This document shows, piece after piece, positions 21,001 through 30,000 of a stretch of 64,000 bases of DNA (position 1 is its first letter; each line of letters starts with the position of its first letter). Source of the stretch: an uncultured delta proteobacterium (lineage in GTDB: Bacteria > Myxococcota_A > Polyangia > Polyangiales > B10-G4). The stretch is taken from positions 320,001-384,000 of the forward strand of contig CAVSGI010000013.1 of the NCBI GenBank assembly GCA_963727445.1, read 5' to 3'. Position numbers: made by a program.

Positions 21001-24000
21001 CTCTCCGAGCTGGACGAGGGCGAGGGGCTGCCCACGGACGACGCCGAGCGCGAGCTCTTCGAAGAGGAAGCCCGCGAGCGCGAGCAAGCCGAGGGTGTGG
21101 TCGATGCGCAGGACCTGCCCGGCGTGGTGGTCGGCAAGACGCTGGCCGCGAACCTCGGTCTCGAGATCGGCGACCGCGTGCGGGTCATCTCGCCCCTCGC
21201 CGGCCTCGACACGAGCCTCTGGGCGCCCAACGACCGCACGCCGCGCAGCCGCGAGTTCCGCGTCATCGGCGTCTTCGAAGCGGGCTTTCAGGAGTACGAC
21301 AGCCGCCTGATCTACGTGGACCTCTACGAGGCGCAGTCCTTCTTCGATCAGGGAGACACGGTCACCGGCGTCGAGATGCGCTTGAACGACATCGACGCGG
21401 CGCCCGAGATCGCACGCAAGATCGAACGCGAGCTCGGCGGCGGTCCCTTCCACACGATGGACTGGGAGGAGCTCAACCGAAACCTCTTCACCGCTCTCGA
21501 GATTCAGAAGGTGATGCTGAGCCTGGTCACCTCCGCGATCATGGTGGTGGCGGCGCTGGTGGTGATCGCGACGCTGATCATCCTGGTACTCGAAAAGAAG
21601 CGCGAGATCGCGATCCTCAAGGCGATGGGCGCGAAGGACTTCAGCGTCCTCGGCATCTTCATGGTGCAGGGTCTGGTGATCGGCGCCTTCGGTACGCTCA
21701 TCGGGCTCTTGTTGGGCGGCGGGGCCGTCGCCTATCTCGACCTCTACCAATTCCCGCTCGATCCGAAGGTGTATCTGATCGACCACCTCCCGGTGCGGAT
21801 CAGCTCGTGGGAGTTCGTGCTGACGACCGGTGTGGCCTTCGCCATCTGCCTTCTGGCGACGCTGATCCCGAGCTGGTGGGCGGCGCGCCTGTTGCCAGCC
21901 GACGGCGTCCGCTACGAGTAGCGCGGAGCGAGGCGTGATAGGGTCCCGCCGATCGGAGGGGCCTTGAAGATCGTCATGTACGTCCTGGCCGTGTTGGTCG
22001 GCCTTCTCGGTTTGGTCTTCGTCGCGGGGAACCAGGGCGAGGTGCTGCGCATCGTGGTCGGCGCGGTGTTGATCGCCGCAGCGATCGCCATGGTGGTCGC
22101 GGCGCGCATGCGCCCGCAGGTCACACAGCGGAACATCGTCCAGCGCATCGACGTGGGCGGTGACGTCCGCCTCGAAGAGCTGAAGTGCCAGAAGTGCGGG
22201 GCGACGCTCTCGAAGGAGGCGGTGACGGTGCACGAGGGAGCTGTGATGGTCGCGTGCCCCTACTGCCAGGCCAGCTACCAGATGGAGGAGGCGCCGAAAT
22301 GGTGATGCTCTTTTCGAACGTGGCGCGCGCCATCCAGAAGGACGTGGGCGCCTTCTTCGGAGCGGTGCGCGGCGAAGACGAGGTCCCCATCCCGCGCGGG
22401 CTGAACACCTACCCGTTCACCGGAAATGGTGGGCAGACGCGGCTGCATCTCCGCGTTCAGGACGACGGAACCGGCCTGCTCTTTCGCGATGTCACCGACG
22501 TCATCCACCTGACCACCACCGCCACCGAGATGATCTGGATGGCCCTCGAGGGCTGGCCGCCGCGCCGGGCGCTCGGCGCGCTCTCGCGGCGCTACCGGGG
22601 CACGCGCGGGGACTTCGCGGCGGACTACGCGCGGATGCAGCGAGTGGTGCAGGTGTTGTCGACGCCCTCCGCCAGCTGTCACACCTGCGCCCTCGAGCTG
22701 CCGCAGGTGCCGCTCTTCAGCCAGCGCGCCCGCGCGCCGCACAAGGTCGACCTCGCGCTCACCTACGCCTGCAACAACCGCTGCCCGCACTGCTACAACG
22801 ACCCGGAGCGCTTCGACATGCGCGCGCTGCCGGTCGACGATTGGAAGCGCATCCTCGATCAGCTCGCGGAGGTCGGCGTCCCGCACGTGATCTTCACCGG
22901 CGGCGAAGCCACCGTCTACAAGGGCCTCGAAGAGCTCATCGCCCACGCCGACCAGGCGGGGATGATGACCGGGCTCAACTCCAACGGACGGCGCCTCCGC
23001 GATCGCGCGTACGTCGAACGGCTTCGCGACGCCGGCCTCGACCACGTGCAGATCACCCTCGAGAGCCACCACGCCGCGGTGCACGACGCCATGGTCGGCG
23101 CCCGCGCCTGGGAAGAATGCGTGGCCGGCGTGCGCGCCTGCGTCGAGACCGAGGGCCTCCACGTCATCACCAACACCACCATCACGCGCGTCAACGCCGC
23201 CGAGATCGGCGAGACGGTGGAGTTCCTGGGCGACCTGGGCCTGAGCACCTTCGCGATGAACGGGATGATCTACTCGGGCGGCGGCGACGCGAACCCCGAT
23301 GCCATCCCCCAGGACGCCCTGCCCTCGCTCCTGATCGAGGTCCGCGACACCGCCGAGGAGCGCGGGCTGCGGTTCCTCTGGTACACGGTCACCGAGTACT
23401 GCGAGATGAACCCGGTCGAGCTCGAGATCGGGGCCAAGCGCTGTAACGCAGGCGAGTACTCGATGTGCATCGAGCCGAACGGCGACGTGCTGCCCTGCCA
23501 GAGCTACTACATCTCCGCCGGGAACATGCTTCGAGATCCCTGGAGCGAGATCTGGCGCGGCGAGCTCTTCCGCTCCTTCCGCGACCGCGAGGACGATCCA
23601 GCGTGGGCGGGGCTCCCCGACAAGTGCCACACCTGCCCGGACCTGCCGCTCTGCGGCGGGGGCTGCCGCATCGAGCGCGAGTCTGCGGCGGGCGTGGCCC
23701 CGGGCGGCTGTCAGAGCTGCGCGAGCGGCGGACTCACGACGGGACGCGGGATCCGCTCGACAGGCGTCAGCGCCGCGAGCCACTGCACCTGCGGCGAAGG
23801 AGAGAGCGCCGGAGCCGGATGCGCGAGCGATGTGCACCGCGCACCGATGGGTCTCGTCACCCTGCGCATCCCGGAGCGGACGGAGGTCTCGCGATGACCA
23901 GCCCCCTCACCCACTTCTCCCGCGAGCGCGACGGTCAGGTCGCGCGCTATCACCTGCGCGTCGATCCCGACGGCTCGGGGATCCTCCTCGCCAACGCTTC

Positions 24001-27000: not shown

Positions 27001-30000
27001 GTCCACTTTGGGCCCCAGGCCCAAATTGAACACGAATGCCGCGATCCGATCACACATGGCCGATATGAGCGAAGGCGCGCCGCCCAGCATCCCGCCAGAG
27101 TCGGTCCTTCGCGCCCAGGACGCGCTGATCGCGCCGATGCGCTCGCGCATCCTGCGGCGCATCGGCATCGGCCACCGCGGGCCCGTCCTCGACCTCGGCG
27201 CGGGGCCGGGGGTGGTGAGCGCGGAGCTGTTGCGGCGGAGCCGCGGTCCGGTGGTCGCCCTCGATCGCGATCCCATCGTGAAGAAGGCGCCCGCCGACGA
27301 GCGCGTCGTCGCCGACGCGACCGCCCTGCCCTTCGCCTCGGGCCGCTTCGCGCTCGTCTACGCGCAGTTCGTCTTTCTCTGGAACGACGCGGCGGCGCGA
27401 CGCCGCATCGCCGAGGAGATCGCTCGGGTGCTCTCACCGGACGGCGTGGTGGTGATCGTCGAGCCGGACTATCACGCCGCCATCGAGCACCCCCCCACCA
27501 TCGCCATCGCCCCGACCGCCGCCGCCGCCATCGCACGCGCGGGTGGGGTGCCCGACGTCGCCCGGCGCCTGCCGGCGGAGCTCTGTGAGGCGGGCCTGAC
27601 GGTGCGCATCGAGCAGAGCCCGGAGCTCGTCCCGCCCAATCCCGCGCGCTTCGCCGCGCTCGAAGGATTGCCGCTCACCGCCGAGGAGCAGGCGCGCATC
27701 GCGCAGGCGAAGAACGCTGACGCCGCGCTTCGCCCCGACGCCCGCTTCGCTCACGTACCGCTCTTCTTCTTCACTGCCGAGTCTGGGGCCTCGGGTCGAC
27801 GACGCGGCCCATGAAGAGGATCGTCCCCGAGCTCGGCTCGCGGATGGCGAAGAGGAAGGGGCGGTCGGCGCGGATCTCGATCGGCTCGGCGGGTCGCCCG
27901 CCGCCAAAGCCCATCGTGACCGCGGTGGCCGCGGCCGCCTCGGTCCCCTCTTCGTCCACCTTCACGAACACCTGGTGGTACGCCTCGCTCACATAGAGGC
28001 GCTCGTCGGGGTCGGCGGGGCGCCCGATGCCGAAGAAGTCGGCTGCGCCGTCGTCGAACGCGAGACGCATGCCGAGCGCCTTCAGGGCTGTGGAGAGGGT
28101 CATGCGGGTCGACATCTCGAAGCGCGGCATCACCAGGCGCACCCGGTCCTGTGAGAGAAGCCCGACCCATCGCTCGAACTGATCACCCGAGAGCTGGCCT
28201 TCGATGGCTGGCAGGCCCGTGGCCGAGTCGGGGATGATCAGCGTCATCACCAGCTCGTCGCCGCGGTAGGGCAGCTCGACCACCGTCACGTCGCCGCGAT
28301 GCGCGTGCTTCAGGTTCTCGGTCTGCCGCATCAGCGGCACCTCGATGGTCGAGCCATCGGCGAGAGTGAAGCGCTCGTCGCGAGTGAGCGCTGAATCGAA
28401 GGGCTCGGCCCACGCGCCCAGGAAATAGACGGCGTTGACCAGCACCAGGCCGGTGTCGGCGGTGATCGAAGTCGGGGGCAACAGATCGGTGATCCGCTCG
28501 CGTGTCTGTTGGGCGACCCATTCGTTGATGTGCTCGCGCTGCTCGTTCGGCGCGCCGTGGAAGTCCACGCCTTCGAAGGGCGCGGCGTAGGTGGTGCGCG
28601 TCAGCGTGAGGTAGTCCTGCTCGAAGCGAGCGCTCTGCTCGCCGAAGAGGCGATCCACGACGCGCAGCTCGTAATCCTCGCGGTTCGGATCGTTCCAGCG
28701 CGCGAGCACGCGGCCCGCGGCTTCGTGCACCGCGTCGGCGTCCCCAACGAGGCCCATGGTGCGCGCCATCTCCGCTGCGGTCTCACCCCGGGCGCCGCCG
28801 AAGACCATCTCGAAGGCGAGGGTGATGGAGGCCGGCGAGATCGCGAGATTGCCGTCGGCTCCGCGCGCCTGCCCGTAGATCGCGAAGCCGAAGGCGTTGC
28901 TGGTGCGAGCGAAGGCCGAGGCCTGCTCCGCCGTGGGCGGCTCCTGCTCGCGCGGCTCGGGGTTCGAGAAGAACGACTCCGGCGCTTCGTCGTTGCCGGC
29001 GCCCTCGCTTTCGGCCTCGGCCGTCTCCGGCGCTTCGGTGCTGATCTGCGGCGCGGACGGCTGCGTGACGGGCCCGTTCGTCCCGCACTTGCAGGCGCAG
29101 AGCGCCATCAAGACCACGAAGAATCGCCGCATCGTCCCTCCGTTCAACGACTGACGTCGAAGGCCCTGGACGTCGAGATCCGGCGGCAGAGCCCGGGGGT
29201 GAACTCGCACGAAGAGACGGCGGCGGTCAATGCTCCCGGCACCAGGATGGCGTCGCGCGTCTCGATCGGCAGCTCCGGGAAGAGGCCGCGGGCGCGAGCC
29301 GCGCCCCAGTACTGGACGTACCAGCGCGGCGCAGTGTCCACCGCGTAGGTGACGCGCTGGATGGTGTCGGCTGCGGTCGATGTCCAGCGCACGCGCTCCG
29401 TCAACGCGATCCCGTCGGCGGTCGCGACGTCCAGCGTCGGCGGCGAGAGGAATTCGGCGTCGATCGGCGCGCTGGGCGGCCCGTCCCAATCGAGGACGAC
29501 GCTCGACTGACCGCCGCCGTCCGACTCGAGCTGCAGCGTGAGGAAGGACGCTTCGCCCGCCGGCGGATCGACGAGGCCTAGCCGGGCGGTGACCACGCCG
29601 GTGGCTTCGGTGTAGGTGGTCTCGAGAGGGAAGCCGACGGTGGCGCCGATCTGTCCGCGCGGCGTGACCGTGCTGAGCGCGGCGAGTGGTAGCGCGCTGT
29701 CGAAGAACGGCGTGCCGCTCGGCACCACGTAGGCGATGGTCCGCTCCGCGAGCGGGACGTCGGTGGAGAAGTCGAGGACCAGGTCCGTCGTCTCGTCTGC
29801 CGCTGGCGTCTCGAGGAAGGTCGCGTCCACCATCCACTGTCGGCCGCGCGCGCCGAAGGTCGCAGGCGAGAGCGCCCAGGCCCAACCGATCAACGTGGTG
29901 GAGGGCTGAGGCGACATGCGGATGGTCCAGGGGAGCGTGAGAAAGCCGCGGAACTGGAGCGCGTCGCCGTCGAGTGGCTCGACGAAGAGCGTGGACAGGC

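What a model noticed while it worked through the whole genome (the two positions that open the first line are those of the whole stretch)
21964..27814. Radical-SAM/pseudo-SAM cassette acting on a membrane protein with an invariant CACAGCACACACAGGGR tail
A five-gene cassette encodes a small zinc-ribbon membrane protein, a radical SAM/SPASM enzyme, a paralogue without the SAM cysteine motif, a 621-aa membrane protein ending in a Gly/Ser linker plus a near-invariant Cys-Ala repeat peptide, and a methyltransferase. The tail is the likely substrate, i.e. a RiPP-like core fused to a large membrane protein; the cassette is shared with Chloroflexota.
Evidence so far: All 22 loci fetched keep the Cys-Ala tail (20 end in CACAGCACACACAGGGR, one is a repeat shorter, one is cut by the contig end) while the body is only 39-65% identical; the pseudo-SAM gene is directly upstream in 20 of 22, the active enzyme in 8, the methyltransferase downstream in 10. 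18 of 19 genome-collection hits are Chloroflexota; only 3 of 60 order relatives have it. No NCBIfam family for the membrane protein or the small protein. It is the only protein of this genome with such a tail.
(Added by a program. Inside this text positions count along the whole contig: contig position 320,001 is position 1 of the stretch shown here. "Call 12" and the like, gene names such as g00115 and contig names such as C1 are that model's own, and its searches are not shown. The text may have been shortened before it was handed on; [...] marks where a part breaks off. The agent that wrote the report below was given it as the finding of a first reader that could run no searches.)

Follow-up and report, generated by a model that had tools for sequence, protein, structure and literature searches.

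The report
Radical-SAM system for Cys-Ala protein tail
A gene set found in many bacteria and archaea pairs a peptide-modifying radical-SAM enzyme with a large membrane protein whose inner end is an almost unchanging cysteine-alanine repeat, which points to an untested enzyme-made modification on a full-size membrane protein.

Summary
119 of the 120 best hits to the membrane protein's body alone keep the Cys-Ala tail. Active enzyme and membrane protein occur in the same 22 of 251 Chloroflexota genomes and side by side in 10 of 121 Thermoplasmatota genomes. An 11th has a tail-less copy beside a dead enzyme only. The pseudo-enzyme is accessory. The protein is a distant DUF2207 offshoot (ribophorin-I-like outer domain, GOLPH3-like inner domain) with a cytoplasmic tail. 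A sister system has a Cys-His-Ser-Ala tail. Best reading: the RRE/SPASM enzyme (closest solved structure SkfB) crosslinks tail cysteines as thioethers on the intact protein; this is untested. Precedents exist (CrpC/CrpA, StsB/StsA, TIGR04222/MNIO, HXS). Three tail fragments already stand as 'uncharacterized' predicted precursors in a 2023 supplement (PMC10288494), without the membrane protein. This scan found the system before on other DNA (34 findings, at least 32 genomes). Verdict: undescribed variant of a known kind, interest 0.7.

The parts
21964..22305 (+). Small membrane protein: two hydrophobic helices, C4 zinc ribbon (C75, C78, C98, C101), conserved end YQxxEEPKW; core partner of unknown role
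   Evidence: present in 64 of 79 tail loci; no named family in the Atlas
22299..23897 (+). Active radical SAM enzyme: N-terminal RRE-like domain (about residues 34-121), CX3CX2C at 158-165, SPASM domain with seven conserved Cys (368, 382, 400, 443, 446, 452, 456), low-confidence Cys/Gly-rich end
   Evidence: best PDB match SkfB by sequence (E 1e-30) and by fold; the profile also hits the RRE TfuB1 at positions 26-96 (E 7e-5)
23894..25126 (+). Pseudo-radical-SAM paralogue: RRE/PqqD-like N-terminus kept, CX3CX2C lost, only the last four SPASM Cys kept; accessory
   Evidence: (PqqD E 0.008)
25126..26991 (+). 621-aa DUF2207-like membrane protein: signal peptide, outer beta-sandwich (about 30-225, ribophorin I/aminopeptidase-N-like), three membrane helices (241-309), cytoplasmic GOLPH3/Vps74-like domain (329-551)
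26896..26931 (+). Ser/Gly linker (residues 591-602), variable among homologues
26932..26988 (+). Cys-Ala tail CACACAGCACACACAGGGR (residues 603-621), disordered in the model; proposed core to be modified
27056..27814 (+). Class I SAM-dependent methyltransferase of a cassette-specific subfamily; target unknown (C-terminal carboxyl or thiol)
   Evidence: (52 of 79 loci)

Best explanation
The operon builds a post-translationally modified membrane protein. Shown from sequence and models: the protein is exported with a signal peptide and anchored by an odd number of helices (three here, mostly one in types B and C), which leaves a GOLPH3-like domain, a flexible linker and the Cys-Ala tail in the cytoplasm. 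Inferred: the RRE of the active radical SAM/SPASM enzyme docks on the cytoplasmic part. A tail Cys binds the open site of an auxiliary Fe-S cluster, and the 5'-deoxyadenosyl radical takes H from an Ala or Gly, giving several Cys-S-to-carbon thioethers, more likely S-C-alpha as with SkfB and StsB. The tail stays on the protein as a rigid, crosslinked end. The pseudo-enzyme is an RRE-bearing adaptor. The methyltransferase most likely caps the terminal carboxyl or free thiols, and the zinc-ribbon protein is a membrane partner. My estimate that the tail is this enzyme's substrate at all is about 0.8; that the chemistry is thioether formation on the intact protein, about 0.55. The biological role, which I guess is an envelope-stress or metal-handling receptor, is weakly supported (about 0.25).
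For: Linkage: active enzyme in 70 of 79 tail loci and 41 of 45 well-flanked ones, and elsewhere in the genome in 5 of 5 tested exceptions. Starting from the enzyme, 23 of 24 well-flanked metagenome loci hold the membrane protein or tail. Same 22 of 251 Chloroflexota genomes; 10 of 10 enzyme-bearing Thermoplasmatota genomes of 121 have it adjacent. Coupled loss: G448 has a homologue ending before linker and tail (hhalign 99.7%) beside a CX3CX2C-less paralogue, and no other enzyme match at E 1e-15 or better. Ala follows a tail Cys in 2999 of 3014 positions in 448 distinct tails, tighter than a metal-binding spacer should need (inference). Topology: 4.0-4.6 K/R after the last helix against 0.6-1.2 before the first; odd helix counts in 113 of 142. 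Enzyme: RRE, seven conserved SPASM Cys, as described for CrpC with one open site (PMC13692751); top structure SkfB. By my reading against the definitions, three of four locatable catalytic-proximity residues equal SkfB (Y, T, Q). StsA, whose core pattern is CxCxCx4GxGxG, gets Cys-Gly sactionines (PMC10288494), and StsA/BlaA-class rows begin GCACAC. A sister enzyme sits beside a sister membrane protein with a different Cys repeat. No protease is conserved nearby.
Against: No biochemical data, and no leader or recognition sequence was identified: the stretch before the linker differs between types A and B. Co-occurrence also fits enzyme and protein working together on another substrate, and genomes within a phylum are not independent. 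The coupled loss is a single draft genome. L134 has the enzyme and the zinc-ribbon gene but no membrane protein within 7 kb upstream and 5.5 kb downstream; L189 has none in 7 kb upstream. One class-II enzyme locus (L217) showed no membrane-protein hit. The tail does not fit the StsA spacing (three adjacent Gly, not GxGxG), and the Gly that shifts the Cys/Ala register is absent in archaeal tails, so no single ring pattern follows. SkfB similarity is only 21% identity, and PqqE, a C-C coupling enzyme, scores nearly as well by sequence.
Confidence: 0.55

Rival explanations
1. The tail is the enzyme's substrate, but the chemistry differs: epimerisation of alternate Ala residues (a D/L pattern as in polytheonamide-type peptides, recalled), S-to-C-beta coupling to Ala that gives lanthionine by a radical route (Cys-x-x-Ala register shared by CACA and CHSA), or Cys oxidation as by anSME.
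For: Ala is almost invariant at every position. Cys-x-x-Ala occurs in both tail classes, and CrpC links Cys to an i+3 residue in CAGM, CAVD and CPLV (PMC13692751). Inside CxC, non-Ala is rarer at i+3 positions (1 of 1273) than elsewhere (5 of 868).
Against: These counts are tiny and not independent; counting block ends too, there are 7 of 2141 against 8 of 873. Proximity residues resemble SkfB more than CteB. The epimerase EpeE ranks 40th in the fold search.
Confidence: 0.17
2. The tail is not modified. It is a metal or Fe-S ligand, or a thiol relay, that serves the enzyme or a metal-handling complex; the true substrate is something else, such as the zinc-ribbon protein, a lipid or a small molecule.
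For: Five to eight Cys in 441 of 448 tails; the sister tail adds His; the zinc-ribbon protein has its own conserved C-terminal motif and lies next to the enzyme in type A; the RRE-bearing pseudo-enzyme persists with a tail-less protein.
Against: Near-invariant Ala spacers; an RRE points to a ribosomal substrate (PMC10288494); Asgard loci lack the zinc-ribbon gene yet keep enzyme and tail; tail loss goes with enzyme loss.
Confidence: 0.15
3. The membrane protein is a giant RiPP precursor: the modified tail is cut off at the linker and acts as a free peptide.
For: A flexible linker precedes a sharply bounded core; RODEO scored C-terminal fragments as sacti/ranthipeptide precursors, and one 65-aa CHSA-type entry begins with Met (PMC10288494 supplement).
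Against: No conserved protease in 1581 neighbouring ORFs; the only transporter signal was a generic ABC ATPase cluster in 12 loci. The body is conserved domain by domain. No stand-alone tail gene was seen: in 75 of 79 flanked tail loci the body was detected, and the other four are cut by contig ends.
Confidence: 0.12

Closest known systems
CrpC/CrpA of Methanococcus voltae (TIGR04463; PMC13692751, 2026; read: abstract, whole Results, Discussion; supplements searched)
   Same: RRE-radical SAM-SPASM enzyme with seven SPASM Cys that installs thioethers in a Cys-repeat C-terminus of a full-size protein
   Different: CrpA is a 28.8-kDa protein with an N-terminal leader and 17-residue repeats. Here the target is a 550-640-aa membrane protein with a short Cys-Ala end. 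TIGR04463 is not among the 25 best NCBIfam hits, and the paper's supplements hold no CACACA, CHSAC or DUF2207.
Sactisynthases SkfB and StsB/BlaB (PDB 6efn; PMC10288494, 2023; read: passages, sections 7, 8, 10; spreadsheet supplement searched)
   Same: Closest solved enzyme is SkfB; StsA/BlaA-class precursors also start GCACAC; three fragments ending in this tail are listed as 'Other Uncharacterized' precursors (SSN group 40) and one CHSA-type sequence as a singleton
   Different: Those are short free precursors with GxGxG acceptors. StsB model score is 96.7 against a cut-off of 625. The paper's main text never mentions membrane or group 40, so the fusion to a membrane protein was not described.
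TIGR04222 membrane proteins proposed as MNIO substrates (PMC12452194, 2025; read: passages)
   Same: Membrane protein with a disordered Gly/Ser-rich, Cys-bearing C-terminus encoded beside a RiPP-type enzyme; the sister protein P0154 hits TIGR04222 weakly (22.8 bits, cut-off 43)
   Different: Different enzyme class; tails there are variable and predicted periplasmic, and the link is loose (a third of genomes lack MNIO). Here the tail is invariant and cytoplasmic, and the link is near one-to-one.
DUF2207 family (PF09972/PF20990; SMU.243 in PMC10457818; read: passages)
   Same: Overall architecture; Atlas neighbours with DUF2207 at 0.93-0.95; sister P0154 passes the PF09972 cut-off and aligns to the family at 99.3%
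   Different: P0004 has no DUF2207 hit; no enzyme partner or Cys tail is reported for SMU.243 in the passages read
HXS anti-phage system (PMC13128918, 2026; read: abstract and outline only)
   Same: A pair of radical SAM proteins, a small protein and a repeat-bearing full-size effector matured by the enzymes
   Different: Periplasmic His-Xaa-Ser effector and two enzymes; no PADLOC match for the membrane or zinc-ribbon protein
NCBIfam radical-SAM target peptides TIGR04135 (FibroRumin) and TIGR04117 (Cys-Xaa-Xaa-Xaa repeat)
   Same: The only models hit by the class I and class II tails
   Different: E-values 0.7-4.8, not significant; these are short free peptides

Membership tests
Radical SAM/SPASM peptide maturase (active gene) | CX3CX2C motif and radical SAM barrel | tested here: met
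   C158, C162, C165 invariant in 63 of 63 rows, which were chosen for having the motif; Pfam E 4e-26
Radical SAM/SPASM peptide maturase (active gene) | SPASM domain with ligands for two auxiliary clusters | tested here: met
   PF13186 47.9 bits against cut-off 21.5; six invariant Cys plus C368 in 61 of 63
Radical SAM/SPASM peptide maturase (active gene) | RRE (PqqD-like) domain | tested here: met
   Strands-plus-three-helices N-terminus in the model; profile hit to TfuB1 E 7e-5; sister enzyme PF05402 E 2e-9; paralogue E 0.008
Sactipeptide/ranthipeptide system | Cys-to-carbon thioether shown in the product | not testable with these tools
   needs mass spectrometry
Sactipeptide/ranthipeptide system | Short free precursor with leader and core, cleaved and exported | tested here: not met
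   the core is the end of a 500-640-aa membrane protein; no conserved protease nearby
Sactipeptide/ranthipeptide system | Score above the cut-off of a named maturase model (SkfB, AlbA, StsB and others) | tested here: not met
   all 25 shown NCBIfam hits below cut-off
Group 1 sactisynthases (PMC10288494) | Six catalytic-site-proximity residues | tested here: inconclusive
   by eye: Y, T, Q match SkfB; position 6 is S against L; positions 3 and 4 not placed with certainty; the paper's reference figures (PDF supplement) could not be read
DUF2207 | PF09972 or PF20990 above gathering score | tested here: not met
   none for P0004; best family members 14.1-14.3 bits against 24.4; only the sister P0154 passes
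DUF2207 | Outer beta domain, membrane helices, inner domain, low-complexity end | tested here: met
   the DUF2207 architecture itself is partly recalled
TIGR04222 / MNIO system | TIGR04222 domain above cut-off and an MNIO neighbour | tested here: not met
   no hit for P0004; P0154 below cut-off; the cassette's enzymes are radical SAM proteins
HXS defence system | His-Xaa-Ser repeats, two HxsB/HxsC enzymes, periplasmic effector | tested here: not met
   the tail has no His, the second enzyme lacks CX3CX2C, Hxs models are far below cut-off

The most novel reading that the evidence does not exclude
An old system shared by bacteria and archaea, Asgard lineages included, in which a radical SAM enzyme turns the cytoplasmic end of a receptor-like membrane protein (ribophorin-I-like outside, GOLPH3-like inside) into a rigid rod by chemistry not yet described: repeated Cys-to-Ala coupling at the unactivated methyl carbon (lanthionine without a dehydratase) or alternate-residue epimerisation. 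Interchangeable repeat codes (Cys-Ala, Cys-His-Ser-Ala) are read by sister enzymes, and a dead paralogue acts as the membrane adaptor.
Probability: 0.15. Interest if true: 0.9.

Novelty: new variant of a known kind. Interest (0 to 1): 0.7.

Why it matters
Few radical-SAM thioether enzymes are shown to act on full-size proteins (PMC13692751 names QHNDH, MCR, the ribosome and CrpA as proteins with RiPP-like modifications), and my searches found none on an integral membrane protein. Here the predicted substrate is exactly defined (17-21 residues), conserved across two domains of life, and comes in two natural sequence codes with matching enzymes. That makes the test cheap and could show new coupling chemistry on Ala or Gly. 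It also gives a handle on the DUF2207/TIGR04222 superfamily, whose low-complexity tails have no known function, and shows that RiPP mining tools mis-call such systems as short precursors.

Tried and rejected
Literature: 'CACACAG' drowned in DNA primers; 'ACAGGGR' gave 6 unrelated papers; DUF2207 gave 9 papers, none on this system by title and abstract; combined radical SAM/RRE/Chloroflexi/membrane terms gave 0; some searches gave the precedents cited and no description of the cassette. The library lacks most subscription papers, and the PDF supplement of PMC10288494 could not be read; it may discuss group 40. DNA-repeat artefact: rejected. Stop-codon read-through or selenocysteine: rejected; TAA, TAG and TGA all end the gene. 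Mobile element: no match in 72,556 plasmids, one match in viral contigs, GC like the rest of the window. Known defence system: only generic viperin and methyltransferase hits. Sequencing runs: no RNA holder listed, not followed up. Pfam scans of 25 family members gave no hit above cut-off. Mirror test: identities of enzyme and membrane body correlate (Spearman 0.72, 51 loci) and tail types cluster on a quick enzyme tree, but operon inheritance predicts that anyway, so I give it no weight. L019 was dropped as a chance match (TGG, no stop). The pattern match in G448 is in a shadow frame. The Cys-x-x-Ala register test was inconclusive. The methyltransferase's second-best PDB hit is LahSB, a C-terminal carboxyl methyltransferase, but the match covers the generic SAM-binding half, so it is a lead only.

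
Full report
1. What is there. The window holds five co-oriented genes at 21964-27814. The first four touch or overlap at their stop and start codons. They encode a 113-aa protein with two hydrophobic helices and a C4 zinc ribbon; a 532-aa radical SAM/SPASM enzyme; a 410-aa paralogue without the CX3CX2C motif; a 621-aa membrane protein ending in SG11-CACACAGCACACACAGGGR; and a class I methyltransferase. No NCBIfam model reaches its cut-off for any of them and none matches the membrane protein. Each of the membrane, zinc-ribbon and enzyme genes has one clear orthologue in the genome, and no other protein ends in such a tail.

2. The tail is under strong selection. All 120 listed hits of the full-length search (885 at E up to 0.001, query included) end in the tail: 88 as here, 29 one repeat shorter, 2 ending in V, 1 two repeats shorter. 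Because the tail adds to that score, I repeated the search with residues 30-560 only: 119 of the 120 listed (832 in all) have it, and P0145 reads it in another frame. Among 150 best 50%-identity representatives (1372 at E up to 0.001), 135 end in a Cys-Ala tail; the 15 others look like cut or frameshifted records. The 122 remaining matches use 121 different DNA sequences for the last ten residues, and the free position is Arg in 121, through all six codons. There are three variants: A (3+4 repeats, as here), B (4+3) and C (no inner Gly; archaeal).

3. Range and partners. Of 79 flanked loci, 49 are Chloroflexota, 11 named archaea (Methanomassiliicoccales, other Thermoplasmatota, Heimdall- and Hodarchaeota), 5 Planctomycetota and 14 others (titles, tallied). 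Within 9 kb the active enzyme is present in 70 of 79, the zinc-ribbon gene in 64, the methyltransferase in 52 and the pseudo-enzyme in 50 (51 with L009, where it shares a frame with the membrane gene). Among 45 well-flanked loci the counts are 41, 39, 32 and 30. Of the nine loci without the enzyme, five were tested and all five genomes hold an orthologue elsewhere (526-679 bits); the other four end at contig ends and were not tested. Starting from the enzyme, 61 of 80 metagenome loci hold the membrane protein or tail, 23 of the 24 with 4 kb on both sides; 18 of the 19 misses lack that flank on one side. In 251 Chloroflexota genomes the same 22 have enzyme and membrane protein. In 121 Thermoplasmatota genomes all 10 with the enzyme have the membrane gene adjacent. 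In the window's own class only G000 and G293 of 151 have this system, so it is patchy there. The pseudo-enzyme is missing from all 10 type-C loci and from 2 of 2 archaeal genomes searched whole, where the only match lies on the active gene. In six type-C loci the methyltransferase stays adjacent on the opposite strand.

4. A natural control. The eleventh Thermoplasmatota hit, G448, encodes a 434-aa homologue (hhalign 99.7%) that stops after the GOLPH3-like domain, without linker or tail. Its neighbour is an RRE-bearing paralogue without CX3CX2C, and the genome has no other match to the enzyme at E 1e-15 or better and no real tail. It is one draft genome, but it is the pattern expected if the tail exists for the active enzyme, and it suggests that the dead paralogue binds the body.

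5. A sister system. A weaker enzyme hit in G020 led to L211: a homologous membrane protein (hhalign 99.3%; passes Pfam DUF2207) ending in Cys-His-Ser/Asp-Ala repeats, followed by an RRE-radical SAM/SPASM enzyme, a coiled-coil protein and a zinc-ribbon membrane protein. Of 22 homologues of its body, 9 show the repeat, 6 of them complete to the end, one is a Cys-Ala-tailed protein, and the rest are cut or unrelated at the end. The pair recurs in G310, G269 and G328; the fetched stretch of G292 showed the enzyme only. The four class-II enzymes form one branch.

6. Anatomy. The model (mean pLDDT 86) has a signal helix, an outer beta-sandwich, three membrane helices, a cytoplasmic domain and a disordered end. 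The outer domain is closest to the luminal domain of ribophorin I/Ost1 (Z 15.3, rmsd 2.7, 177 aligned), then aminopeptidase N-terminal domains. Residues 329-551 match GOLPH3 (Z 7.5, rmsd 3.9, 160 aligned) and Vps74 (Z 6.3), which are middling scores. The Atlas places it beside DUF2207 clusters. Type A mostly has three helices (73 of 90), types B and C one (39 of 52), with basic residues after the last helix, so the tail is cytoplasmic. The enzyme has an RRE-like N-terminus and seven conserved SPASM Cys; SkfB is the best solved match by sequence and by fold. No protease is conserved among 1581 neighbouring ORFs.

7. Mechanism. Shown: architecture, topology, linkage, co-occurrence, one coupled loss. 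Inferred: RRE docking on the cytoplasmic part, radical H-abstraction from Ala or Gly, several thioethers on a tail that stays attached, an adaptor role for the pseudo-enzyme, and capping by the methyltransferase (0.55). Rivals: other radical chemistry on the tail (0.17), an unmodified metal or Fe-S ligand (0.15), a released peptide (0.12). The ring pattern cannot be read from sequence, and the register test was inconclusive. Binding of enzyme to protein is untested.

8. What is known. CrpC installs ranthionines on the 28.8-kDa protein CrpA (PMC13692751; abstract, Results, Discussion read; supplements without these motifs). StsB makes Cys-Gly sactionines on a CxCxC core (PMC10288494). The spreadsheet supplement of that paper lists three fragments ending in the type-B tail as 'Other Uncharacterized' predicted precursors (group 40) and one CHSA-type sequence; its main text does not mention a membrane protein, and its PDF supplement could not be read. 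TIGR04222 membrane proteins with Cys-bearing tails are proposed MNIO substrates (PMC12452194; passages). HXS matures a full-size repeat protein with two radical SAM enzymes (PMC13128918; abstract). Ten paper searches found no description of this cassette. This scan's own notes hold it many times on other DNA; those are unchecked AI notes and not support.

9. Verdict. A real, widespread, undescribed family that works like known protein-directed radical-SAM maturases but is a member of none tested: a new variant of a known kind. Interest 0.7.

Noticed in passing
L211:983-5794 (G020); L216, L218, L219: Sister system with a Cys-His-Ser/Asp-Ala repeat tail, its own RRE-radical SAM enzyme, a zinc-ribbon membrane protein and (in L211) a 390-aa coiled-coil protein; G020 carries both systems.
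   Followed up: partly
L221:5088-7755 (G448): Tail-less homologue of the membrane protein beside a dead radical-SAM paralogue, in a genome without the active enzyme.
   Followed up: yes
L009:5548-9033 and P0167: Pseudo-enzyme and membrane protein in one reading frame, with different junctions and a shortened pseudo-enzyme; real fusions or sequence errors.
   Followed up: partly
P0156, P0165, P0171, P0181, P0182: Family members of 766-838 aa with the outer domain apparently duplicated.
   Followed up: no
L057, L129, L138, L139, L141, L145, L167, L188: Two tandem membrane-protein paralogues served by one enzyme; both tails seen in six of these eight loci.
   Followed up: no
L075, L128, L132: Mosaic loci: a type-A-like enzyme with a partial membrane gene faces a type-B membrane gene and pseudo-enzyme on the other strand, suggesting that enzymes accept both tail types.
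   Followed up: no
window 23703-23870: The active enzyme ends in a low-confidence Cys/Gly/Ser-rich extension (residues about 469-523) that most family members lack.
   Followed up: no
window 20233-21921: LolE-like FtsX/MacB permease directly upstream, with a long acidic insert; not a conserved neighbour of the cassette.
   Followed up: no
window 27771-29885 (-): Serpin gene converging on and overlapping the methyltransferase's end.
   Followed up: no
window 31321-33053: tRNA-Gly(GCC) followed by a phage-type integrase, a likely island border 3.5 kb downstream of the cassette.
   Followed up: no
L203:6001-6297: One viral contig carries the tail at its end, with a piece of the membrane gene.
   Followed up: no
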